Shown here: positions 8,118 to 60,732 of the stretch, in pieces
Position numbering within the stretch: the first letter of the stretch is position 1
Layout: the number at the start of each line of letters is the position of its first letter
NCBI GenBank assembly: GCA_024654025.1
Contig: JANLIR010000002.1
Coordinates: 21,885 to 85,884, forward strand
From: Candidatus Wolfebacteria bacterium
Lineage (GTDB): Bacteria > Patescibacteriota > Minisyncoccia > UBA6257 > UBA9933
Reading direction: 5' to 3'
Length of the DNA: 64,000 nucleotides
Translations under genes and position numbers: made by a program
The notes under the pieces: model-generated
Database searches by the model: none
The model's input: only the letters and a program-made list of their open reading frames with translations
What the model was told of the DNA's origin: nothing

Positions 8118-8675
8118 TTATTTACGGAAAGCGCTTATCAAATAAAACGCCACTATCCCAAAAGCCACTACTACATTTAATGACTCCTTCCGGCCATACA
8201 TCGGAATTTCCAAAATTTTATCCGCTTTTTTCAAAATCGGTTTCGGCAAACCCTTAATTTCATTTCCAACGATTAACGCAATTTTGTTTTTCAGTTTTTT
8301 AGTTTTTGAGTATTTTAGTTTATTATACGGAATTGAATTCTTACTTTGCTCAATCGCGAAAATTTTATATTTTTCCTTTTTGAGCTTATCAATCAATTTT
8401 GAAATTGCTTGTGCTGAGCCCTTCGGTCCTGAGCTCAGGGTCGAAGGACGCGCCGAACCAATTTTCTCCCAAGCTACATATTTTTCCGCTCCCAAAGAAA
8501 CTTTTGTCAGTTGCTGTCTCGGCCGTCCAAAAACATCCGCCGGAGCCGGAGTTATCCCGCATAAATAAAGTTTTTTAATTCCCACCGCATCCGCAGTCCG
8601 GAAAATAGACCCCACATTATGCAAACTCCGAATGTTGTAAAGTAAACCAACCATAATGACTCTATTATAACCCAA
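8118..8675 (-). CDS. SpoU/TrmH-family RNA 2'-O-methyltransferase
   Basis: 185 aa, SPOUT-like (IMVGLLYNIRSLHNVGSIFRTADAVGIKKLYL...LIVGNEIKGL). It overlaps the start of the downstream giant gene by 11 nt. Confidence 0.6.
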   Translation of the reverse strand: MGYNRVIMVGLLYNIRSLHNVGSIFRTADAVGIKKLYLCGITPAPADVFGRPRQQLTKVSLGAEKYVAWEKIGSARPSTLSSGPKGSAQAISKLIDKLKKEKYKIFAIEQSKNSIPYNKLKYSKTKKLKNKIALIVGNEIKGLPKPILKKADKILEIPMYGRKESLNVVVAFGIVAFYLISAFRK

Positions 8676-11600
8676 TTTTCATATACCAATCCTCTCTTCC
8701 ACTTTCATACGAATAAGAACAACTATTACTATAAAATAAATGCTCTCCGCCCGCGTAAAGATCCTCTCTGCTAACAGCGTTTTGCCACTGATTCCTTGAC
8801 CATTGGTCATCATTATTTCCGCCAACATAACTATCAACCTCCAATAACATCCAATATTTTTTGTTGACCGCAAACGCTACGGGAAAAGAAAAATTAAAAA
8901 CTAAATCAGAAGAAGGGCTATAAATATCAGCCAATACCGAACTGGCTAATTGCGAATTCAAATCAGGTCTATCTTTGCCGTCGTCGTTGAATACCGACAA
9001 TTTTAAATTAGCGCCGTCTGTTCCTGTGTTATGCATAACCTTCACAACGGCTTTATCAAACTGAAAATCTTTTTCCGGAACAATACTCTGCGCGCTTTTG
9101 GCAACGCATCCCGAAAAATATTTGTTCCCAAAAGGATAGCTCCAGTTATTGGCTTGAGTTTGAGTTATTTCAAAATTAATATCAGGGTATTTCCAATTCG
9201 CCGTCAAAGCGCTTGAAGTTACTCCGAATTCATCTTTAGCGCGCGCGCTTATTGAAAAATCATCGCCCGACGTAACGGACTTTACTGTACCGGTCGCATA
9301 GACAGCTTGCCACTCGCCAGAATCATTGTATCGAATCTCATAACTTAACAAAGATTCAACAGTATCTGAGTCACTGGCTTTGGACCAATCAATAGCGAGT
9401 TTGGAATTTTGCTTATCAAAAACCAAATTAATAGAGCCTGTCAATTGTGGCGCCTCATGAATAGGTTCCTTGCCAAAATAATATTTCTTTTTATCAACAG
9501 CTACTAATCGAAAAATTTCCGGGCCGCCGTTTGGTATGCTTGAATGCTCAAAAGAATAATAGCCGGCAGTTATGTAATCGCTCGCTGAAAAAGATGTTTG
9601 ATCAGCGGTTTTTTCAAGCGGAACAAAAAATTTATTAATCCCCAAACTGGAAATAGCAAATCTTTCGGTGCCTATTCCCAAACCATTGCATCTTTGGGGA
9701 GTGTCCGCTAAAATCAAGGCCTTAAATCGCGATTCTCCTCCCGTTGACGCACACGGAATATACCGGACGCCGATTACCTTAAAAAAATCTTCCGCCGGCC
9801 ACTTCCAATTATAGCCGTCGCCAAAAGGATTCTCTATGTACGTTTGTTTCGATGGCTCGCTATTTAAATAAAAAACAACGACTTTCCAGCCATCAGGCGC
9901 GTATAAACTCGGCGCGATCGGATATTGGCTATATTTTCCTTCAACCAAATAATCGCTTTGATTTCTAGGGTCTTTATAAAAATAAAGTCCGGAAAGAAAG
10001 CTCGGCGCCGAAACTGTTGTTGTGGCGCTCGCCAAAATCGAGCTACTCGCGTCAACCGCTTCGACTAATAAATCATAATTTCTGCCAACCTCATCAATTA
10101 CAATACTTGCCGACGTGGATGAAGATTGATTTAAAATAGCGCTTGAAGAAGCATCTAATATTCTGTAACCAATCTCTGTGCTTGAAGAATCAATACTAGT
10201 TACAGCTTGCCAACTCAAATCTATCCTCATTGAATCTTTAACAAAAACAGCCGAAAGGCCGTTTAAAATCGAAGAAGAAGTTGCGTCAGAAGTTGATGTT
10301 GATAAAGTTGATGTTGACGCGGTTTGCTCTTGCGAATAAGAATACGAATCGATTATTTGAGTACCCGAAGCGCTGGAAATTAAGTTTTGATTAGAAACCA
10401 AAAACAAAGCTCCTTTAGTATTATTTAAAGCCTGGCTCCACGATAAATCCGCACCCTGACATGGAGTAGCGGCGTGGCAATTCGCGCCGATTTTAAAATA
10501 ACCTTGGCTTAAAATTTTATTTCCATTTTCGAAATTTCTTTTTTTAATGTTTGAGAAATCCTCGTCAGCAGCCAAATACTGAATGGAAAAATTACTTAAA
10601 TCAACATCGCTTTCTTCAGAATTAAAAATTCTCGCGTATTCATTACCTTCATCCGCGCCTTCAGGGTTATAAACAACTTCCGTGATTTTTAACCTTAAAC
10701 TGCTTACATTAGTTGAACTTGCGGTAGAAGTGGAATTTGTAGAAGTTGAATTAGAACTAGACGCCTGATTAGACGCTTGATTAGATACTTGAGAATTTTG
10801 AGTTGTGTTATTAGCAATAACTACTCCGCCTCCGCCATAAACAACCGAATTTTCCGCTTTCGGCGTTCCGCCGACATACGCCGACGTGTGCCAACCAAAA
10901 TCACCGCCATTTCGCTCCATTGTCTTTTTCAAATAATTGTCGCCAGCTAACCAACTAGAACCAGCCAGAACTTCGTCCATTAAATTACATTGTCCATCAA
11001 ACAATCTTAAACCCTCGTCGCTGTTAGAAAGCGCGCCGGTATAAATTAAATCCGCCTTAACGTTGAGCGTGGAATTATCATCCGTTCTTTCCAAAAGGAT
11101 AAATCCGCCGCTAGATAAATTTCTGTTTTTCAATTGAGATAAATTAACTTCTATTTGCCTGCCTTTGTTAATTATTTGCCAATTAGAAAGATCAATATTT
11201 TGATTTGAAATATTTTTCAATTCTACCCATTCGTCGTTAGCGCTGACAGCTGAACCCATCCACGCTACTTCATTTATTAAAACTTTATTCCGTAAAGGAG
11301 TTTGAGAATTATTAAAAAGACATTTAGCAGCTACCTGGTTTGTTAAATTAATTTCCGTTTGAGAACCGCTGGATTTTTTATCGCTATTTTTTTCAACAAG
11401 CGAAGAAGTTGAATTTTTATCCGAATTTTTATCAATGGTTGTTTTTTGGCTGTCGCTTTTCTTTACGTTTAGACTCTTTGAACTACTACTATCATTAGGG
11501 CCAGAATTGCCAACTATTGATAAGTCCTTTTTTAAAGAAGCAATATCCTTTTTCAACGAGCTAATTTCACTTTTTAAAGATTTTATTTGGCTATTTTCAT

Positions 11601-12894
11601 CTCCGGCTGATTTAGATTTAACAGAATTCTTCGTATTTCTACTGCCTGAACTAATTTCATTCTGAACACTCAAATCATTAGTTAAAGAAACTTGGTCCGC
11701 TTGAGTAAAATCGTTTTGATTGCCAAAAAGCCCAGAAAAAAACTCTCCCACCGAAGAAAGAGTATTCTTTACCGTGCCAACAGCGCTGTCCCAAAAAGAA
11801 CCAATCACACCCTTGGCTTTTTCCGTTTCTCCATATAAGGAAACAATTGGCACCGTAGGAATATCTATTTTTGTCGCACTCGGCTGATAATCAACAACCT
11901 GGGCGTTTTCTTGCGCGTCTTTAAAAAAATTATTTATCACCTGAACGCCGGTTAAAACAACTTGTTTTGAGAGAAGATTCCAATAAGCCTGGTGAATGAT
12001 AGGATCGCTTATTAAAAAATTTTCATCTCCATCTGAAGCTTCAAATGGATAAAAATTTCCAAAATTATCGTGCCTGAAATAAATTTTCTTATCCGTGGTA
12101 ATTTCCGATGATTCACTGGTTAATTTTTTATATTTAGGATCATCAATTGTGTCTTTGCTGTAAAAATTTTCATTGGAGTATTTTGCTAATTTAATAAAAC
12201 AATCTTTTGTGTCAAAACAAGAAATACTTCCTTTAATATTCGAATTTGTTAAATTAGAAAAATTAATATTTTGGCTTTCTGCGGCCCATTTTTCATAAGG
12301 ATCAGCATCGTTTACTGCTTGATTTATTTCCGCGTGAGTATCGTTTCTGGTATGAGCCGGAACGCCTAAGTCTTCAATTAGATGCAAAACATAGCCCAAT
12401 GCCTTAAAAGAATTTTCATAAGTGGCGTAATCCGGCTTTACTGCCGCGCTGGTATTTCCCAGTCCGGCAAAAACATACGCCTGAACTGCTTTTGAATAAG
12501 TTTGATCGCCTTGGTAGAGTGAATATCTTCCTTGAAGTTTTTGATCAAACGCCCAATTTACAGAAGAAGTCGCGTCTTTTATTGAAAGGAAGATTTTTGA
12601 AAGAAGGTAAATTGTTTCTTTTGAAATATCTCCTTGTTTTTCTCCAGTCCAGCCCTGATTTAAAACCGGATCATAAAAATGATTAATCCATCTTGGCGGG
12701 GTGTCTTCTTTTATAGATCCGTTAATTATCCAATCCGCTTGCTCTTGAGATATTTTTACTCCGGAATTTTGGTTATAAACTTTTATAATTTCTCTTGTTA
12801 ATTCCTGATGGGTTGGGCTTGGCCAAAAAGCAAGAGACGAATTAAAAGAAAAAATAAATAAAAATAATATAGCCGCAAAGATTTTTTTGATCAT
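8665..12894 (-). CDS. Giant secreted protein with four elements. (1) An N-terminal zinc-dependent phospholipase C / nuclease-S1-P1-like domain. (2) A coiled coil. (3) Two lamin-tail (LTD) domains. (4) Ser/Thr-rich linkers and a C-terminal beta-rich region.
   Basis: Signal peptide MIKKIFAAILFLFIFSFNSSLA. The N-terminal domain carries HFYDPV...GW and YVLHLIEDLGVPAHTRND, resembling the PLC motifs SHFYDP and LHYLGDVNQPMH. The coiled coil is heptad-like (SLKSEISSLKKDIASLKKDLS). There are two LTD signatures, LINEVAWMGSAVSANDEWVELKN and LKITEVVYNPEGADEGNEYARIFN. 1409 aa. Confidence 0.6.
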   Translation of the reverse strand: MIKKIFAAILFLFIFSFNSSLAFWPSPTHQELTREIIKVYNQNSGVKISQEQADWIINGSIKEDTPPRWINHFYDPVLNQGWTGEKQGDISKETIYLLSKIFLSIKDATSSVNWAFDQKLQGRYSLYQGDQTYSKAVQAYVFAGLGNTSAAVKPDYATYENSFKALGYVLHLIEDLGVPAHTRNDTHAEINQAVNDADPYEKWAAESQNINFSNLTNSNIKGSISCFDTKDCFIKLAKYSNENFYSKDTIDDPKYKKLTSESSEITTDKKIYFRHDNFGNFYPFEASDGDENFLISDPIIHQAYWNLLSKQVVLTGVQVINNFFKDAQENAQVVDYQPSATKIDIPTVPIVSLYGETEKAKGVIGSFWDSAVGTVKNTLSSVGEFFSGLFGNQNDFTQADQVSLTNDLSVQNEISSGSRNTKNSVKSKSAGDENSQIKSLKSEISSLKKDIASLKKDLSIVGNSGPNDSSSSKSLNVKKSDSQKTTIDKNSDKNSTSSLVEKNSDKKSSGSQTEINLTNQVAAKCLFNNSQTPLRNKVLINEVAWMGSAVSANDEWVELKNISNQNIDLSNWQIINKGRQIEVNLSQLKNRNLSSGGFILLERTDDNSTLNVKADLIYTGALSNSDEGLRLFDGQCNLMDEVLAGSSWLAGDNYLKKTMERNGGDFGWHTSAYVGGTPKAENSVVYGGGGVVIANNTTQNSQVSNQASNQASSSNSTSTNSTSTASSTNVSSLRLKITEVVYNPEGADEGNEYARIFNSEESDVDLSNFSIQYLAADEDFSNIKKRNFENGNKILSQGYFKIGANCHAATPCQGADLSWSQALNNTKGALFLVSNQNLISSASGTQIIDSYSYSQEQTASTSTLSTSTSDATSSSILNGLSAVFVKDSMRIDLSWQAVTSIDSSSTEIGYRILDASSSAILNQSSSTSASIVIDEVGRNYDLLVEAVDASSSILASATTTVSAPSFLSGLYFYKDPRNQSDYLVEGKYSQYPIAPSLYAPDGWKVVVFYLNSEPSKQTYIENPFGDGYNWKWPAEDFFKVIGVRYIPCASTGGESRFKALILADTPQRCNGLGIGTERFAISSLGINKFFVPLEKTADQTSFSASDYITAGYYSFEHSSIPNGGPEIFRLVAVDKKKYYFGKEPIHEAPQLTGSINLVFDKQNSKLAIDWSKASDSDTVESLLSYEIRYNDSGEWQAVYATGTVKSVTSGDDFSISARAKDEFGVTSSALTANWKYPDINFEITQTQANNWSYPFGNKYFSGCVAKSAQSIVPEKDFQFDKAVVKVMHNTGTDGANLKLSVFNDDGKDRPDLNSQLASSVLADIYSPSSDLVFNFSFPVAFAVNKKYWMLLEVDSYVGGNNDDQWSRNQWQNAVSREDLYAGGEHLFYSNSCSYSYESGREDWYMKIGL

Positions 12895-12897
12895 AAA

Positions 12898-13530
12898 TTA
12901 ATTCTGGTAAAGCTTCCAAATCTGCGCTGGCTTACTGAATTGAAAAATTATTGAGCCTTGATATTTGCCCGCGGGGATTGTGCTAGTTTCCTCTGCGGCT
13001 GTATCATAAAAAGTATGATTTTTTTTCTGAATATATTCATACGCAAACTTTTTTGAATCTCTGTCCCAAAAATCAACTTCTTTCAAATTAGACCATTCAA
13101 TCGGTAATTTATTTACATACTCCCCCAACCATCCTTCACTTTGTAAACGCACTAACCATTTATACGCTCTTCCCGGGCCTTCAATGCCGATGTAATACTT
13201 TGAAGCAAGCAAAATATCGCCTTTCTTTAAAGCATCCAAATACATAAAATAAGTTTCTTCCGGAGTTTTCCCTCCGTACTTATCGTTTTTTAGAGCGTTT
13301 AAATAATCCTGCTCAGCCGAAAAATAAGCGTCGAATCCCCTTTGAGCAAAATAATCATTGTACAAAGTTTTTAAGATCGGATACCCAACAAAAAGTGCGA
13401 TGATAATCGCCAAAAAACTCAAAACAAATTTTCGATACGATTTCTTTTGGACCGGAGACAGCGAAGAATCGGGTGAAGAATTGAAAGAATCATTTGAACC
13501 GCTTTCCGAATCTTGATTTTGGAGTTCCAT
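12898..13530 (-). CDS. Hypothetical membrane-anchored protein (Ser-rich N-terminus, one TM helix), co-operonic partner of the giant PLC/LTD protein
   Basis: 210 aa; TM helix FVLSFLAIIIALFVGYPIL; its stop is 3 nt upstream of the downstream giant ORF's start codon. Confidence 0.45.
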   Translation of the reverse strand: MELQNQDSESGSNDSFNSSPDSSLSPVQKKSYRKFVLSFLAIIIALFVGYPILKTLYNDYFAQRGFDAYFSAEQDYLNALKNDKYGGKTPEETYFMYLDALKKGDILLASKYYIGIEGPGRAYKWLVRLQSEGWLGEYVNKLPIEWSNLKEVDFWDRDSKKFAYEYIQKKNHTFYDTAAEETSTIPAGKYQGSIIFQFSKPAQIWKLYQN

Positions 13531-13749
13531 AAATTTTTTGTGTTAATTATTTATAATTTTAATTTCTAAGACTATATTTTACAATAGGCCAAAAACAAAA
13601 ATTTTGTCTTCTGAAACCCATAAGTAATTTAGATCTAAAATTTCAAAACACAAATTAAATAATATTTTTAACCTCCGGTTTTAAAAACAAAAAAAGAGCT
13701 TAGAGCGCTGGTCTAAAAAAAATAATTCGGCAGTCCGTCATCTGGTGAG

Positions 13750-14029
13750 TTGCCGAATTATTGTTTGCCGAACTATTTGTGATTGGCTTTGCCGAACCAA
13801 CTATCCTAAACTTATCAATAAAGGATTGCCGAACTAGTTGTGGCGAGCCTGCCGAATTATTTATAATATATTTATCTAACTGCTTACAATAAATTTTACA
13901 GAGTCATTGCCGAACTCATCAATAGTAATCTTGCCGAACTAAACCGTACTACTATACCAAACTTTGCCGAACTTTTTGCCGAATTACTTGTGGTAATCCG
14001 TCAGCTGACGGACGGACTCTTGCCGAACT
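13750..14029. repeat. Noncoding array of ~10 direct copies of TTGCCGAA(C/T) with irregular 7-55 bp spacing, plus one inverted copy at 13724-13732 and a 16-bp palindrome TCCGTCAGCTGACGGA
   Basis: Counted directly in the sequence; no ORF of 60 aa or more in 13531-14240. Confidence 0.7.
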
Positions 14030-14200
14030 ACTGCCTATTTTAACAAAAACCAGCCTGATTCAATCCCATCACTAACTCAATACACCTATTATTTAAAGCA
14101 GCAAAATAACTAAAATCGCCTCCATTAAAACTCAAAATTTTAAACGCTCCTCAACACATCATTTATCCCCCGCTTAAACCCCACTCAAAAGTTATCCACA

Positions 14201-14240
14201 TTTACTACAATAACCTGCGATCGCAGGTTATTGTAGTAAA
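14201..14240. repeat. Perfect 40-bp palindrome TTTACTACAATAACCTGCGATCGCAGGTTATTGTAGTAAA
   Basis: Exact reverse-complement symmetry; it abuts the stop codon of the wHTH/Cas2-like gene and a perfect DnaA-box 9-mer (14192-14200). Confidence 0.9.
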
Positions 14241-14846
14241 TTAAAAATTCCCTTCAAGCGTTCCTTTTTTATCTATGGAAAAAATCTCTACATAATGCAA
14301 AATGTCTAAATTTTTAAGATCGTCGATAAAATCTTTGGGCAATTTATTCTTGCTAATCCAAACGCTTTTTTGTAGCATAGAAAACCCGAGGGCAATTAAA
14401 TTTTCCCGCAGCCAATTTCTTTTTCGCTTTTCCTCTTCGGGAATATCAAAAATAACTATCTTTAATTTTCCATCTCTGTCACTTTCTTTCGTATAAATTT
14501 TATAAGGTAATTTATTTTCTTTTTTTAACTTTAACTCATTAAGCTTCTTTTCTCCTTTTTTGGTTATCTTCCATTTAGAACGGTTGTTCTCTTTAGTTCT
14601 TTTAACTAAACCTTGTTTTTGAAGATAACCTAAAAGATTATAAAAACGCTGTTGTTCTTTCTTTTTATATTGTTCGTAACTTAATTTTGAAGAATTTTCA
14701 AAAAGTTCTTTATAGAAAGGGCCGTATTTAATCTTTCGCTTCGCTTTCTTATAAGAGTCGTGATAATTCTTTAAAATAATATCAATTAGGTCTATGCTAA
14801 GCTCCCCAAATTTCTTCGCAGCTTCCAAAATAAATTCTGTTTTCAT
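14241..14846 (-). CDS. Small protein with an N-terminal winged-helix domain and a C-terminal Cas2-fold (Cas2/VapD-like) domain
   Basis: ...FYNLLGYLQKQGLVKRTKENNRSKWKITKKGEKKL is wHTH-like. KIVIFDIPEEEKRKRNWLRENLIALGFSMLQKSVWIS matches the Cas2 beta1-alpha1-beta2 pattern (VxxYDI..RRR..L.K.L...G.R.Q.SV). The likely ATG is at 14846; the track ORF starts with TTG at 14855. Confidence 0.5.
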   Translation of the reverse strand: MKTEFILEAAKKFGELSIDLIDIILKNYHDSYKKAKRKIKYGPFYKELFENSSKLSYEQYKKKEQQRFYNLLGYLQKQGLVKRTKENNRSKWKITKKGEKKLNELKLKKENKLPYKIYTKESDRDGKLKIVIFDIPEEEKRKRNWLRENLIALGFSMLQKSVWISKNKLPKDFIDDLKNLDILHYVEIFSIDKKGTLEGNF

Positions 14847-14860
14847 GATGAGCAATTAAT

Positions 14861-14900
14861 TTTACTACAATGACCTGCGATCGCTGGCTATTGTAGTGAA
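14861..14900. repeat. Imperfect 40-bp palindrome TTTACTACAATGACCTGCGATCGCTGGCTATTGTAGTGAA, a near-copy of 14201-14240
   Basis: Same arms and GCGATCGC core with about 3 mismatches; it lies between the trxB stop and the wHTH/Cas2-like start. Confidence 0.85.
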
Positions 14901-15818
14901 TTATTTTATTTTAAGGTAATCGTAGATATTTAAGACCGCTTTGATGGCGTCGCCGGCGGCGATGTTATTTTGATTGTATAAAACGTCAGTAACGTCCCCT
15001 GCCGCCCAAATACCCTCCGAAGAAGTTTTCTGAGTTTTTTGGTCAATAATAATTCTTCCGTACTTATCCAAATCAATCAAATCTTTCACGCTTTCGCTGT
15101 TTGGCTGGAATCCGATTTCCACAAAAACGCCTTCAACCGAAAGCTCTTTCATTTCTCCGGTCTTCCTGTTCTGGTATCTGATTCCTTTTACGAATTCGTC
15201 TCCAAAAATTTCTTTTACTTCAGCCATTGTTATCTCTTGAGATTTTCCCGAGGCTCTTACCTTATCGCAAGTCACGGAATCAGCCTTGCACTCTTCCGTA
15301 TATTCCAAAATGTAAATTTTATTAGCGTAAGGCAATAAATCCATGGCTGCTTCAAAACCGGAATTTCCCCCTCCAACAACAGCCGTGGTTTTGTTTTTCA
15401 TAAGAGGCGCATCGCAGGTAGAACAATAAAAAACGCCTTTTCCATCGTATTTATCTTCTCCCGGAACATTAAGCCGCTTGTGCCGGCTGCCGGCTGTAAG
15501 TAAAATCGTTTTTGTTTCAAATTTATCCCCTTTGTCGGTAAAAACCGAGATAACTTCCCCTTGTTTTTCAATCTTAGAAACAAAAACATTGTCTTTTATT
15601 TCAATATCTTCCTGGTCGCGAAGATGACCCTCCAAATTTTTGGCAAGCTCGAAACCGGAAATATCTTTAACTCCTATCCAATTTTTAATACCCGCAGAAA
15701 CAAGAGATTGTCCCCCAAAATCCTTGGTTAAAAAAAGCGTATTTATTTTTTTCCTGGCCGCGTAAACTCCAGCCGCTACTCCGGCCGGACCGCCGCCGAT
15801 AATTATCAATTCGTACAT
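14901..15818 (-). CDS. trxB: Thioredoxin-disulfide reductase
   Basis: MYELIIIGGGPAGVAAGVYAARKK FAD-binding GxGxxG motif; the active-site region includes CSTCDAP (CxxC); NADPH site GGGNSGFEAAMDL. Likely start is M17 of the track ORF. Confidence 0.85.
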   Translation of the reverse strand: MYELIIIGGGPAGVAAGVYAARKKINTLFLTKDFGGQSLVSAGIKNWIGVKDISGFELAKNLEGHLRDQEDIEIKDNVFVSKIEKQGEVISVFTDKGDKFETKTILLTAGSRHKRLNVPGEDKYDGKGVFYCSTCDAPLMKNKTTAVVGGGNSGFEAAMDLLPYANKIYILEYTEECKADSVTCDKVRASGKSQEITMAEVKEIFGDEFVKGIRYQNRKTGEMKELSVEGVFVEIGFQPNSESVKDLIDLDKYGRIIIDQKTQKTSSEGIWAAGDVTDVLYNQNNIAAGDAIKAVLNIYDYLKIK

Positions 15819-59788: not shown

Positions 59789-60499
59789 TTATTTAGCCAC
59801 ATAATAACTGCCCGGACCAGTACTTCCGATTCTAGAAACCAAGCCCTGATCGCAAAGTCGCAAAAGATAAAATCTAACAGTTCTTTCGCTTATATCAGGA
59901 AAAGAGGCTAATAATTCTTTAGTGGTTGTTTTACCTAATTCTTGTACTTTTTTAAATAAACGATTTTGCCGATCTTCGTCGTCCTGAGGTTGCCGAAAGA
60001 TTGCCGAACTCTTTTCGCTCTTGTCCTGAGCTTGCCGAAGGATTGCCGAACTCCTCTCATCTTGCCGAACTATTGCCGAACTACTTGTGGTGAGCTTTGC
60101 CGAACTAACTTGTCCTGAGTTTATCGAAGGATTATTTATATCAAATAAAGGCGCTGGAACTTTTGCAAAAATTCTGTCTATTGCCGAACTTTTTTCTTTC
60201 TCTTGCCGAATTGCCGAATTCCATTGCCGAACTGCTTCTTTTAAATTATCTATTTCCCTAAAAAGTATAAAAGCGTTAATTTTGCCGATCTCTTCCACTA
60301 CTTCTGCCAAACGAATAAGTTGTTCCAATTTTTCCAAGTTATCCACAACTCCAAGATTGGCAATAATATCCACAGAGGCGTTTTCCAGCTCAATTTTAAG
60401 CTTTGGCTGTTTTATAATATTGGCGCACCTAAAAACCGCCCAAGCAATCTCGAAAGACCTATTTTTAATAAATTCCACATCCCCTGTGATCATAGCCAT
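59789..60499 (-). CDS. Putative DNA-binding protein: N-terminal helical domain, low-complexity 'SSAI' repeat linker, C-terminal winged helix
   Basis: The C-terminus TTKELLASFPDISERTVRFYLLRLCDQGLVSRIGSTGPGSYYV is DeoR/MarR-like wHTH. The central region is encoded by the TTGCCGAAC repeat array, so the ORF could alternatively be a read-through of a DNA-level repeat. Confidence 0.4.
   Translation of the reverse strand: MAMITGDVEFIKNRSFEIAWAVFRCANIIKQPKLKIELENASVDIIANLGVVDNLEKLEQLIRLAEVVEEIGKINAFILFREIDNLKEAVRQWNSAIRQEKEKSSAIDRIFAKVPAPLFDINNPSINSGQVSSAKLTTSSSAIVRQDERSSAILRQAQDKSEKSSAIFRQPQDDEDRQNRLFKKVQELGKTTTKELLASFPDISERTVRFYLLRLCDQGLVSRIGSTGPGSYYVAK
59990..60235. repeat. Second array of ~11 copies of TTGCCGAA(C/T), embedded within ORF 59789..60499
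   Basis: Counted directly; copies occur in all three reading frames relative to the ORF; TTGCCGATC variants lie at 59966 and 60273. Confidence 0.7.
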
Positions 60500-60585
60500 T
60501 ATTTAACAGGCAAATAATACTATGTCAATCCCTTTGTCGAACTTTTGACAAATTAAACAAAAACAATAGAATTAGATATTAAAAT

Positions 60586-60669
60586 GCCCGGGTGGCGGAA
60601 TTGGCAGACGCGCAGGACTCAAAATCCTGTAATCGCAAGGTTGTGTGGGTTCAACTCCCACCCCGGGCA
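60586..60669 (+). tRNA. tRNA-Leu (anticodon CAA)
   Basis: Acceptor stem GCCCGGG/CCCGGGC with discriminator A; anticodon stem CAGGA/TCCTG around loop CTCAAAA; long variable arm (class II); T-arm GTGGGTTCAACTCCCAC. Confidence 0.85.
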
Positions 60670-60732
60670 CAAAAAAAGGGAAGGCTTTCGCCTCCCCATT
60701 GACCGAATAGTTACCTCCGCCGCGCCGCATCC

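What the first reader, a model, noticed from the sequence alone, without database searches (positions are those of the whole stretch)
13720..14040. Dense array of the 9-mer TTGCCGAA(C/T) in a 700-bp gene-free stretch
Ten direct copies and one inverted copy of a 9-10 bp motif lie within ~300 bp, with irregular 7-55 bp spacing. The region has no ORF of 60 aa or more and sits between a surface-protein operon and a palindrome-flanked regulator gene. A 9-mer is expected less than once per 100 kb by chance. The architecture looks like iterated protein-binding sites (iterons, parS-like centromere or operator arrays), or a structured or repetitive RNA locus. It is not explained by any annotated feature. 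The array also contains a perfect 16-bp palindrome, TCCGTCAGCTGACGGA.
Basis: seen in the sequence. Interest (0 to 1): 0.6.

Follow-up and report, generated by a model that had tools for sequence, protein, structure and literature searches.

The report
Conserved regulator-site array, derived from gene
The gene-free cluster of TTGCCGAAY motifs is real and conserved; it most likely serves as docking sites for a DNA-binding regulator encoded 46 kb away, whose own gene carries the same motif array inside its coding sequence in all three reading frames.

Summary
There are 10 direct copies of TTGCCGAAY and 1 inverted copy at 13724-14028, with no ORF and no regular tandem period. The source is a Candidatus Wolfebacteria (Patescibacteria) MAG. 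It lies inside a 236-aa gene (59789..60499, minus strand) that encodes an Avd-like four-helix bundle, a disordered linker and a DeoR-like winged helix. The array occupies the linker.

In 14 orthologues, down to 35% identity, the core TTCGGCA sits in all three reading frames with extreme codon bias. An exact copy lies near -27, between the -35 and -10 boxes of the gene's own promoter, in 8 of 15 loci. 10 of 15 have at least one copy within -100..+20 of the start.

The ORF-free array is conserved at the same syntenic place in four other genomes. The heptamers are better conserved than the spacers, and the terminal inverted pair is invariant. One copy keeps a frameshifted relic of the linker peptide.

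Best reading: a pseudogene-derived operator or landing-pad array for this regulator, upstream of a surface-protein operon. Binding is inferred, not shown. Iteron, parS, origin, CRISPR and structured-RNA readings are not supported.

The parts
13750..14028 (+). Ten direct copies of TTGCCGAAY; the extended site is TTGCCGAAYTA. Starts: 13750, 13765, 13789, 13826, 13849 (CTGCCGAAT), 13907, 13931, 13964, 13976, 14020. Read on the minus strand, in the direction of the downstream operon, the site is TARTTCGGCAA.
13717..13766 (.). Inverted pair AAAAAATAATTCGGCA - 18 nt - TGCCGAATTATTGTTT at the end of the array nearest the operon. It looks like an operator. The pair aataaTTCGGCA-N(5-18)-TGCCGAAttatttt is invariant in all five syntenic loci.
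13997..14012 (.). 16-bp palindrome TCCGTCAGCTGACGGA. It is conserved in L143 and L145, and is homologous to the coding segment SSADGSPQIVRQ of intact family genes.
13556..13584 (-). Promoter-like TTGTAA-17-TAAAAT inside a sequence block conserved in relatives, 26 nt before the ATG of the 210-aa gene. This is the likely operon promoter. It rests on a consensus match only.
8665..13530 (-). Downstream operon and putative regulated target: a 210-aa gene of unknown function with no family match (12898..13530) and a 1409-aa LTD/fn3 surface protein gene (8665..12894).
14200..14903 (-). PaaX/Cas2-like winged-helix gene (14241..14846), bracketed by two ~43-bp palindromes with a GCGATCGC core (14200-14243, 14861-14903). 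TGTGGATAA follows on the gene strand (14192-14200). This protein is the alternative candidate binder of the motif.
59789..60499 (-). Gene for the candidate binding protein (236 aa): an Avd-like four-helix bundle (residues 3-112), a disordered linker (117-170) and a DeoR-like winged helix (171-235).
59990..60232 (+). Second array, inside the linker-coding part of that gene: 11 copies of TTGCCGAA(N). On the coding strand they are read in two frames, as SSAI and as VRQ.
60500..60542 (-). The regulator gene's own promoter: -35 TTGACA (60523-60528), a 17-nt spacer, and -10 TAAATA (60500-60505) abutting the ATG. It holds only a one-mismatch site (TTGTCGAAC, 60534-60542), just upstream of the -35 box.

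Best explanation
The array at 13717-14028 is a cluster of about eleven binding sites (TARTTCGGCAA) for a sequence-specific DNA-binding protein. The most likely binder is the Avd-like four-helix-bundle / winged-helix regulator encoded at 59789..60499.

That regulator's own gene carries the same sites in two places. One is its promoter, where most orthologues have a copy between the -35 and -10 boxes, which points to autorepression. The other is an array of 5-11 copies embedded in the DNA that codes for its disordered linker.

The ORF-free array arose from a duplicated copy of that linker-coding DNA. It lost its reading frame and was kept as a cis-element about 190-500 bp upstream of a conserved surface-protein operon (210-aa gene plus LTD protein).

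Proposed mechanism (inferred). Avd-fold proteins form pentameric barrels. An oligomer holding several winged helices on 50-150-residue flexible linkers could occupy many direct-repeat sites at irregular spacing. The terminal inverted pair would act as the core operator. The direct repeats would act as a high-avidity landing pad or decoy that sets expression of the operon, or buffers the pool of free regulator.

Shown: the motif is real and enriched; it is under nucleic-acid-level constraint; it sits in the promoter; the array is conserved in synteny; it derives from coding sequence.
Inferred: which protein binds, its oligomeric state, and the regulatory outcome.
For: 1. Codon choice. In 14 orthologues TTCGGCA occurs in all three reading frames of the linker. 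Codon choice is extreme:
- Ser-Ala is TCG-GCA in 42 of 63 cases, against a 3.6% background.
- Arg-Gln is CGG-CAA in 31 of 45, against 5.7%.
- Phe-Gly is TTC-GGC in 8 of 9, against 14%.

2. Promoter copies. 10 of 15 orthologous loci have an exact heptamer within -100..+20 of the start. In 8 of them a copy lies at -21 to -28, as TTGACA-N3/4-TTGCCGAAY-...-TATAnAAT. The binomial P is about 2e-13. These copies are in inverted orientation and are not transcribed, which favours recognition of double-stranded DNA.

3. Synteny. The ORF-free array is present at the same place (DsbA - Grx - TrxR - PaaX-like - array - ~205-aa gene - LTD gene) in L141/142, L143/144, L145 and L146/147, where the flanking ~205-aa protein is 70-75% identical to the window's. 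Heptamer positions are 52-92% identical, against 36-55% for the rest. The terminal inverted pair is invariant.

4. Origin. The L145 array retains SAIEKIFAKPSMV / LFSENPDGSAIV, a frameshifted relic of the family's linker (tblastn E 1.7e-8; DNA compared).

5. Same site in both contexts. The extended site TARTTCGGCAA is identical in 92 coding and 38 non-coding copies.

7. Link between protein and motif. A subclade with a different winged-helix sequence (L006, L007) has AAACGGCAA repeats instead. An unrelated protein family with a related DeoR-like winged helix carries 4-5 tandem TGCCGAAGT(TT) units at its stop codon in five metagenomic loci.

8. No recent gene conversion in this genome. The non-coding arrays resemble each other (82-128 bits) more than the window's own coding array (52 bits).
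Against: - No binding data exist, so the identity of the binder is circumstantial.
- The window's own regulator promoter has only a one-mismatch site.
- The array lies 130-450 bp upstream of the best promoter-like match for the operon, not over it. Promoter-like matches in the region are no more frequent than in shuffles.
- The array is absent from the equivalent intergenic region of a more distant relative, L009.
- A PaaX-like winged-helix gene is adjacent to every non-coding array found here, and to the intact regulator gene in L001. It could be the binder instead.
- The multiple alignment used for the conservation contrast tends to align repeats to repeats.
- The orthologous loci are not statistically independent.
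- The Avd similarity is at fold level only. There is no Pfam or NCBIfam hit, and pentamer formation is assumed.
- The AlbA_2-type proteins share the RNDL-type helix with L006/L007 yet have TTCGGCA repeats, which weakens the covariation argument.
Confidence: 0.55

Rival explanations
1. It is a functionless pseudogene relic. The array is just the decaying linker region of a duplicated regulator gene. Its heptamers are kept similar by occasional gene conversion from the intact gene, not by selection.
For: L145 keeps a frameshifted coding relic, and that segment is very close at the DNA level to an intact gene (L149). The 16-bp palindrome and the 33-bp unit TTCGGCA-AGCTCACCACAAGTAG-TTCGGCA also occur in coding arrays.
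Against: The array persists at one syntenic site in five genomes whose flanking ~205-aa protein is only 70-75% identical. Heptamers are conserved while spacers are not, and all reading frames are destroyed. The invariant terminal inverted pair is not part of the coding linker. The window's non-coding array is closer to other genomes' non-coding arrays than to its own coding array. tblastn finds no relic of the N- or C-terminal domains.
Confidence: 0.13
2. It is an RNA-level element. The repeats act as GUUCGGCAA motifs in a transcript, either the regulator's mRNA or a long 5' leader or sRNA upstream of the surface-protein operon. They would bind or titrate an RNA-binding protein; winged helices and Avd can both bind RNA.
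Against: The copies in the promoter spacer are inverted and lie upstream of the transcription start. Inverted pairs are typical of double-stranded DNA operators. There is no Rfam match, folding is not significantly stable (z -1.6 and -1.75), and no promoter that would drive transcription through the array is established.
Confidence: 0.12
3. The sites are bound by the adjacent PaaX/Cas2-like winged-helix protein (14241..14846), not by the Avd-like regulator.
For: A PaaX-like gene lies immediately upstream of the non-coding array in all five genomes, and immediately upstream of the intact regulator gene in L001.
Against: In the six orthologous loci examined (L002-L004, L006, L007, L011), motif arrays and promoter copies occur with a tRNA gene or another gene, not a PaaX-like gene, directly upstream. 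L009 has the PaaX-like gene and the same operon but no array between them. The PaaX cassette has its own conserved palindromes, which are the more obvious sites for it.
Confidence: 0.1
4. It is a replication or partition element: iterons, an oriC-type site cluster, or a parS-like centromere.
For: About ten short direct repeats in about 300 bp resemble plasmid iterons or parC-type centromeres. A perfect DnaA box lies at 14192.
Against: GC skew is negative and monotonic across the whole window. There are only three scattered perfect DnaA boxes. The neighbouring genes that were scanned include no rep or par genes. The repeat is a 9-11-mer at irregular spacing with no regular period. The same motif is embedded in, and co-evolves with, a regulator gene.
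Confidence: 0.03

Closest known systems
Operator arrays of winged-helix regulators that bind short direct repeats (PhoB/OmpR boxes; DeoR-family regulators with several direct-repeat operators). From general knowledge.
   Same: A short 7-11-bp site is repeated head to tail, with frequent 11-12-bp and 23-24-bp spacings. It is combined with an inverted pair and a copy over the regulator's own promoter. The C-terminal domain has a weak DeoR-like HTH match.
   Different: There are ten or more sites spread over 300 bp at irregular spacing, far upstream of the target promoter. The regulator has an Avd-like bundle rather than a receiver or sugar-binding domain. The sites are also embedded in its own coding sequence.
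Intragenic or auxiliary operators and autoregulation (for example lac O2 in lacZ, and the PurR operators downstream of the purR transcription start). From general knowledge.
   Same: Binding sites for a regulator lie inside a coding region and contribute to autoregulation.
   Different: Here 5-17 copies fill the linker-coding DNA in all three reading frames and dictate the peptide sequence. This is conserved across a whole family, down to 35% identity.
Decoy or titration site clusters and centromere-like repeat arrays (the datA locus for DnaA; parC of plasmid R1; pNOB8 AspA). From general knowledge; AspA also appears among the fold hits.
   Same: A dense cluster of sites for one small DNA-binding protein, and no ORF.
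   Different: No link to replication or partition genes. The array is chromosomal, sits upstream of a surface-protein operon, and derives from coding sequence.
Avd / 'S23 ribosomal' (23S rRNA intervening-sequence) four-helix-bundle proteins (PDB 8ub7, 4dwl, 2gsc, 2rld)
   Different: There is no sequence-level match. There is no reverse transcriptase and no TR/VR repeat in the window. The domain is fused to a winged helix through a long disordered linker.

Membership tests
Plasmid/chromosomal iterons or oriC | Adjacent replication initiator gene, an AT-rich unwinding element with clustered DnaA boxes, and a GC-skew switch | tested here: not met
   Neighbouring genes are PaaX-like, TrxR, DsbA and an LTD protein. 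Cumulative GC skew is monotonic. Three isolated perfect DnaA boxes in 64 kb.
Plasmid/chromosomal iterons or oriC | Repeats of about 17-22 bp at regular spacing | tested here: not met
   The site is 9-11 bp, spacing is 12-58 bp, and Tandem Repeats Finder finds nothing.
parS / partition centromere | Linked parA/parB (or parR/parM) genes, and a palindromic parS consensus or regular centromere repeats | tested here: not met
   No such genes flank either array. The motif is unrelated to the 16-bp parS palindrome (sequence).
CRISPR array | Repeats of 23-47 bp at a constant period, separated by unique spacers of similar length | tested here: not met
   Repeats are 9-11 bp at irregular spacing, with no tandem period. 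The neighbouring Cas2-like domain belongs to a PaaX-type regulator.
Structured non-coding RNA (Rfam families) | A covariance-model match, or significantly stable, conserved secondary structure | tested here: not met
   No relevant Rfam match at E of 1 or less. Folding z-scores are -1.59 and -1.75.
Operator or binding-site array of a transcription factor | The motif is conserved at the DNA level independently of coding frame, and is present in regulated promoters | tested here: met
   Codon-pair bias of 67-89% against a 4-14% background, in three frames. A copy near -27 in the gene's own promoter in 8 of 15 loci; 10 of 15 have a copy within -100..+20 of the start. The syntenic non-coding arrays have conserved heptamers.
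Operator or binding-site array of a transcription factor | Demonstrated binding by a named protein, and an effect on transcription | not testable with these tools
   Needs EMSA, footprinting, DAP-seq or a reporter assay.
DeoR-type HTH (PF08220) | Pfam match above the gathering score | tested here: inconclusive
   The window protein scores 18.4 bits against a cut-off of 21 (E 0.0018). Several family members have a precomputed PF08220 hit. The model has a winged-helix fold.
Avd / 23S-rRNA-IVS four-helix-bundle family (PF05635-like) | Sequence-profile match | tested here: not met
   No Pfam or NCBIfam hit for residues 1-115.
Avd / 23S-rRNA-IVS four-helix-bundle family (PF05635-like) | Four-helix-bundle fold that superposes on Avd, Xcc0516 and BT_0352 | tested here: met
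Avd / 23S-rRNA-IVS four-helix-bundle family (PF05635-like) | Pentameric barrel assembly; association with a DGR reverse transcriptase | not tested
   Oligomeric state was not predicted. No RT and no TR/VR repeat in the window, so DGR association is not met locally.
Pseudogene (processed relic of the regulator gene) | Residual, frame-disrupted similarity to the parent coding sequence | tested here: met
   For the linker only: the L145 relic has E 1.7e-8. The window's copy matches only at repeat units, with no relic of the N- or C-terminal domains.

The most novel reading that the evidence does not exclude
A multivalent regulator, built from an Avd-like barrel that carries several winged helices on long flexible linkers, uses the DNA encoding its own disordered linker as a dense array of its own binding sites. 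The sites are written in all three reading frames, so the protein sequence of the linker is largely a by-product of the cis-element. Newly made protein would be captured in cis for tight feedback. A frame-dead copy of that linker DNA has been exapted as a stand-alone landing pad or decoy upstream of a cell-surface operon in a clade of Wolfebacteria. An unrelated AlbA_2-type family with a similar winged helix has independently placed the same heptamer in tandem at its stop codon.
Probability: 0.35. Interest if true: 0.8.

Novelty: new variant of a known kind. Interest (0 to 1): 0.62.

Why it matters
Almost nothing is known about transcriptional regulation in Patescibacteria (CPR). This finding gives a concrete regulator, motif and target that can be tested with a few EMSA or DAP-seq experiments.

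It is also an unusually clear case of dual-use sequence. A cis-regulatory motif array imposes the amino-acid sequence of a disordered protein linker, in three reading frames, across a whole family. A pseudogenised piece of coding DNA is then retained as a regulatory element.

If the Avd-like domain oligomerises, the system would show how flexible multivalency lets a regulator read irregularly spaced site arrays. The likely target, a giant LTD/fn3 surface protein, is the kind of protein thought to mediate the attachment of these episymbionts to their hosts.

Tried and rejected
- Whole-gene pseudogene. tblastn of the regulator against locus 1 finds only repeat units and no relic of either domain. 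The pseudogene-origin idea was later revived for the linker alone by L145.
- Origin of replication or terminus. GC skew is monotonic and DnaA boxes are not clustered.
- Known RNA family or stable RNA fold. Rejected.
- Regular tandem repeat or CRISPR-like array. Rejected.
- DGR involvement, prompted by the Avd-like fold. There is no TR/VR-type repeat and no RT-sized candidate in the window.
- Defence-system membership. PADLOC gives only a weak match of the winged helix to the SoFic C-terminus, plus Cas2-like hits for the PaaX protein. PHROGs gives nothing useful.
- Metagenome scan for arrays. It returned mostly unrelated regular tandem repeats from high-GC organisms. Only about 10 of 120 loci were relevant.
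- Literature searches for the motif, for CPR regulators and for Avd-HTH fusions. Nothing relevant was found.
- Look-up of the window's regulator protein by exact sequence. It found no contig.
- A promoter firing into the array (GGGATTGAAT-15-TAAAAT at about 14038-14068, minus strand). It resembles the L001 promoter, but the spacing is poor and the scan did not call it. Left open.
- Helical phasing of sites. Spacings of 11-12, 23-24, 33-34 and 44-47 bp are over-represented, but the arrays are not independent. No claim is made.

Full report
**1. The observation**

The region reads as described. Nine exact TTGCCGAAY copies lie on the + strand between 13750 and 14028. There is a tenth direct copy with one mismatch (CTGCCGAAT, 13849) and one inverted copy (AATTCGGCA, 13724-13732). 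The window holds 20 matches to the motif against 2.3 +/- 1.5 in dinucleotide-preserving shuffles. Outside two clusters, the 7-mer core TGCCGAA occurs 13 times against 12.4 expected, so this is not a genome-wide oligonucleotide skew.

Spacing is irregular and Tandem Repeats Finder finds no period. The longest ORF across the array is 43 aa. The palindrome TCCGTCAGCTGACGGA is at 13997-14012. The extended consensus is TTGCCGAAYTA, which on the other strand reads TARTTCGGCAA. The inverted copy and the first direct copy form a 16-nt-arm inverted repeat with an 18-nt gap (13717-13766).

**2. A second array inside a gene**

The same motif, in the same orientation, occurs 11 times at 59990-60232. This array lies inside the ORF 59789..60499 on the minus strand (236 aa). 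On the coding strand the motif GTTCGGCAA is read in two different frames, as "SSAI" and as "VRQ".

The AlphaFold model has three parts:
- a confident four-helix bundle (residues 3-112);
- a disordered linker (117-170, pLDDT below 50);
- a C-terminal winged helix (171-235).

**3. The motif is constrained as nucleic acid, not as peptide**

The protein belongs to a family found in Candidatus Wolfebacteria and related Patescibacteria. The window's protein is identical to NUV83_00425 of a Wolfebacteria MAG. Homologues down to about 35% identity keep the two folded domains, but their linkers vary in length and are peppered with SSA/NSA, VRQ/IRQ and FGN/FGK.

In 14 orthologous genes fetched as DNA, TTCGGCA occupies all three reading frames. 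Codon choice is extreme:

| Dipeptide | Codon pair | In these genes | Background in neighbouring ORFs |
|---|---|---|---|
| Ser-Ala | TCG-GCA | 42 of 63 | 3.6% |
| Arg-Gln | CGG-CAA | 31 of 45 | 5.7% |
| Phe-Gly | TTC-GGC | 8 of 9 | 14% |

A distant member (L037, 435 aa) has 17 copies.

**4. The motif sits in the gene's own promoter**

In 10 of 15 orthologous loci an exact heptamer lies within -100..+20 of the start codon. In eight of them a copy sits at -21 to -28, in the arrangement TTGACA-N3/4-TTGCCGAAY-...-TATAnAAT-about 6 nt-ATG. That places it between the -35 and -10 boxes. The background expectation is 0.024 per promoter window, giving a binomial P of about 2e-13, ignoring relatedness among loci.

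These copies are inverted relative to the in-gene copies and lie upstream of the transcription start. That favours recognition of double-stranded DNA and an autorepressor logic. L001 and L148 have inverted pairs flanking or following the promoter instead. The window's own promoter (60500-60528) retains only a one-mismatch site at 60534-60542.

**5. The ORF-free array is conserved and derives from coding sequence**

Homologues of the 210-aa protein led to four further genomes with the same gene order: DsbA - glutaredoxin - thioredoxin reductase - PaaX-like - gap - ~205-aa gene - LTD protein. Each gap holds 3-10 direct TTCGGCA copies. Each ends, on the operon side, in the same inverted pair aataaTTCGGCA-N(5-18)-TGCCGAAttatttt, about 190 bp before the ATG.

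In a multiple alignment the window's heptamer positions are 52-92% identical to the relatives, against 36-55% for the other positions. The caveat is that aligners favour repeat-on-repeat alignment.

The array in L145 still contains SAIEKIFAKPSMV followed, one frame over, by LFSENPDGSAIV. This matches the linker of intact family members (E 1.7e-8). At the DNA level it differs from an intact gene (L149) mainly by a one-base insertion.

The non-coding array is therefore a frame-dead derivative of the linker-coding DNA of this gene family. In the window no trace of the two folded domains remains. The non-coding arrays resemble each other (82-128 bits) more than the window's own coding array (52 bits), so there is no sign of recent gene conversion in this genome. 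A more distant relative (L009) has the PaaX-like gene and the operon but no array between them. The element is therefore specific to a clade.

**6. Further links between the winged helix and the motif**

A subclade with a different helix sequence (RTVRNDIQ, in L006 and L007) carries 7-9 AAACGGCAA repeats instead of TTCGGCAA.

Five metagenomic loci encode an unrelated architecture: SLFN_AlbA_2 + HATPase_c_4 + DeoR-like winged helix. Each has 4-5 tandem TGCCGAAGT(TT) units at, or within about 20 nt after, the stop codon. These observations are suggestive rather than conclusive. The AlbA_2 proteins share the RNDL-type helix with L006 and L007 but not their motif variant.

**7. What it is not**

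- GC skew is monotonic across the window, perfect DnaA boxes are few and scattered, and no rep or par genes are nearby. Origin, iteron and centromere readings are therefore unsupported.
- There is no Rfam match. Folding of either strand is not significantly more stable than shuffles (z -1.59 and -1.75).
- It is not a CRISPR-like or tandem array.
- It is not a misassembly, because independent assemblies carry it.

**8. Mechanism**

The best-supported reading is that 13717-14028 is a multi-site operator, landing pad or decoy for the Avd-like / winged-helix regulator. It sits upstream of the operon for the 210-aa protein and the 1409-aa LTD/fn3 surface protein.

The best promoter-like match for that operon (TTGTAA-17-TAAAAT, 13584-13556) lies in a conserved block 26 nt before the ATG. 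It is about 130 bp downstream of the inverted pair. The array would therefore act at a distance, or by titration, rather than by simply blocking the promoter.

If the N-terminal domain oligomerises as Avd does, several winged helices on long flexible linkers could bind many irregularly spaced direct repeats with high avidity. That would explain both the irregular spacing and the number of sites.

What is shown: the motif, the constraint on it, its promoter placement, its syntenic conservation and its origin from coding sequence. What is inferred: the binder, its stoichiometry and the regulatory output. The adjacent PaaX-like winged-helix protein remains an alternative binder. An RNA-level role and a functionless relic are lesser rivals.

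**9. Novelty**

I found no description of this motif, family or arrangement in the searchable literature. Operator arrays and intragenic operators are known kinds. Three things appear new as a variant:
- a site array that fills the disordered-linker coding DNA of the regulator's own gene, in all three frames, across a whole family;
- a pseudogenised copy of that DNA retained as a cis-element;
- the fusion of an Avd-like bundle to a winged helix.

Interest is moderate to high. The main weakness is that no binding evidence exists.

Noticed in passing
window 14192-14243 and 14861-14903; also L009 14820-14870 and 15565-15610; L141, L143, L145, L146 just after the PaaX-like gene: The PaaX/Cas2-like winged-helix gene is bracketed by two near-identical ~43-bp perfect palindromes with a (G)CGATCG(C) core. 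In the five syntenic loci the downstream palindrome is followed by the DnaA-box-like 9-mer TGTGGATAA. In L009, TTATCCACA and ATGTCCACA follow the two palindromes. In L001 a paralogous PaaX-like gene followed by a similar palindrome sits at a different place, between tRNA-Leu and the regulator gene. This suggests a mobile or shuffled cassette.
   Followed up: partly
L025 3395-3432, L097 2087-2140, L118 2334-2380, L135 7000-7037, L125 10710-10760: Genes for SLFN_AlbA_2 + HATPase_c_4 + DeoR-like winged-helix proteins carry 4-5 tandem TGCCGAAGT(TT) units (9- and 11-bp units) at or just after their stop codon. In L125 the 11-bp repeat lies inside the ORF and is read in three frames (IIRQSFGNHSAIIRQSFG). 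Units of 9 and 11 bp could also cause frame-shifting phase variation.
   Followed up: partly
L006 9980-10690 and L007 7227-7856: A subclade of the regulator family with a different winged-helix sequence (ISERTVRNDIQ) has 7-9 AAACGGCAA repeats in its linker DNA (peptides GKRQ, SKRQ) instead of TTCGGCAA. It has no motif copy in its promoter.
   Followed up: partly
L003 9712-9769, L005 9645-9701, L010 9347-9456, L012 9752-9830: In the higher-GC Wolfebacteria, a separate non-coding cluster of two back-to-back inverted pairs (TTCGGCA-N21-TGCCGAATTCGGCA-N9-TGCCGAA) lies 230-650 bp upstream of the regulator gene, just after an MFS-transporter gene. It may be a distal operator.
   Followed up: partly
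window 60497-60528 and the orthologous promoters in L002, L003, L005, L009-L012: The -10 box of the regulator gene's promoter ends only 0-7 nt before the ATG. This implies a leaderless or nearly leaderless mRNA.
   Followed up: no
window 60586-60670: tRNA-Leu(CAA) lies directly upstream of the regulator gene. A tRNA gene also lies directly upstream in L002, L011 and L148, and, with a PaaX-like gene inserted in between, in L001.
   Followed up: partly
window 13765-13797, 13826-13857, 60073-60105; L148 and L149 coding arrays: A composite 33-bp unit, TTGCCGAAC-TAnTTGTGGTGAGCT-TTGCCGAAC, recurs in both non-coding and coding arrays across genomes. In coding arrays it gives the peptide SAKLTTSSSA. 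The 15-bp spacer may itself be a recognised element.
   Followed up: no
whole window: Nearly all genes are on the minus strand, and GC skew is uniformly negative (-0.01 to -0.22). The window therefore lies within one replichore. A higher-GC block (0.44-0.47) at about 50-60 kb coincides with two giant surface-protein genes (1651 aa and 1084 aa).
   Followed up: no
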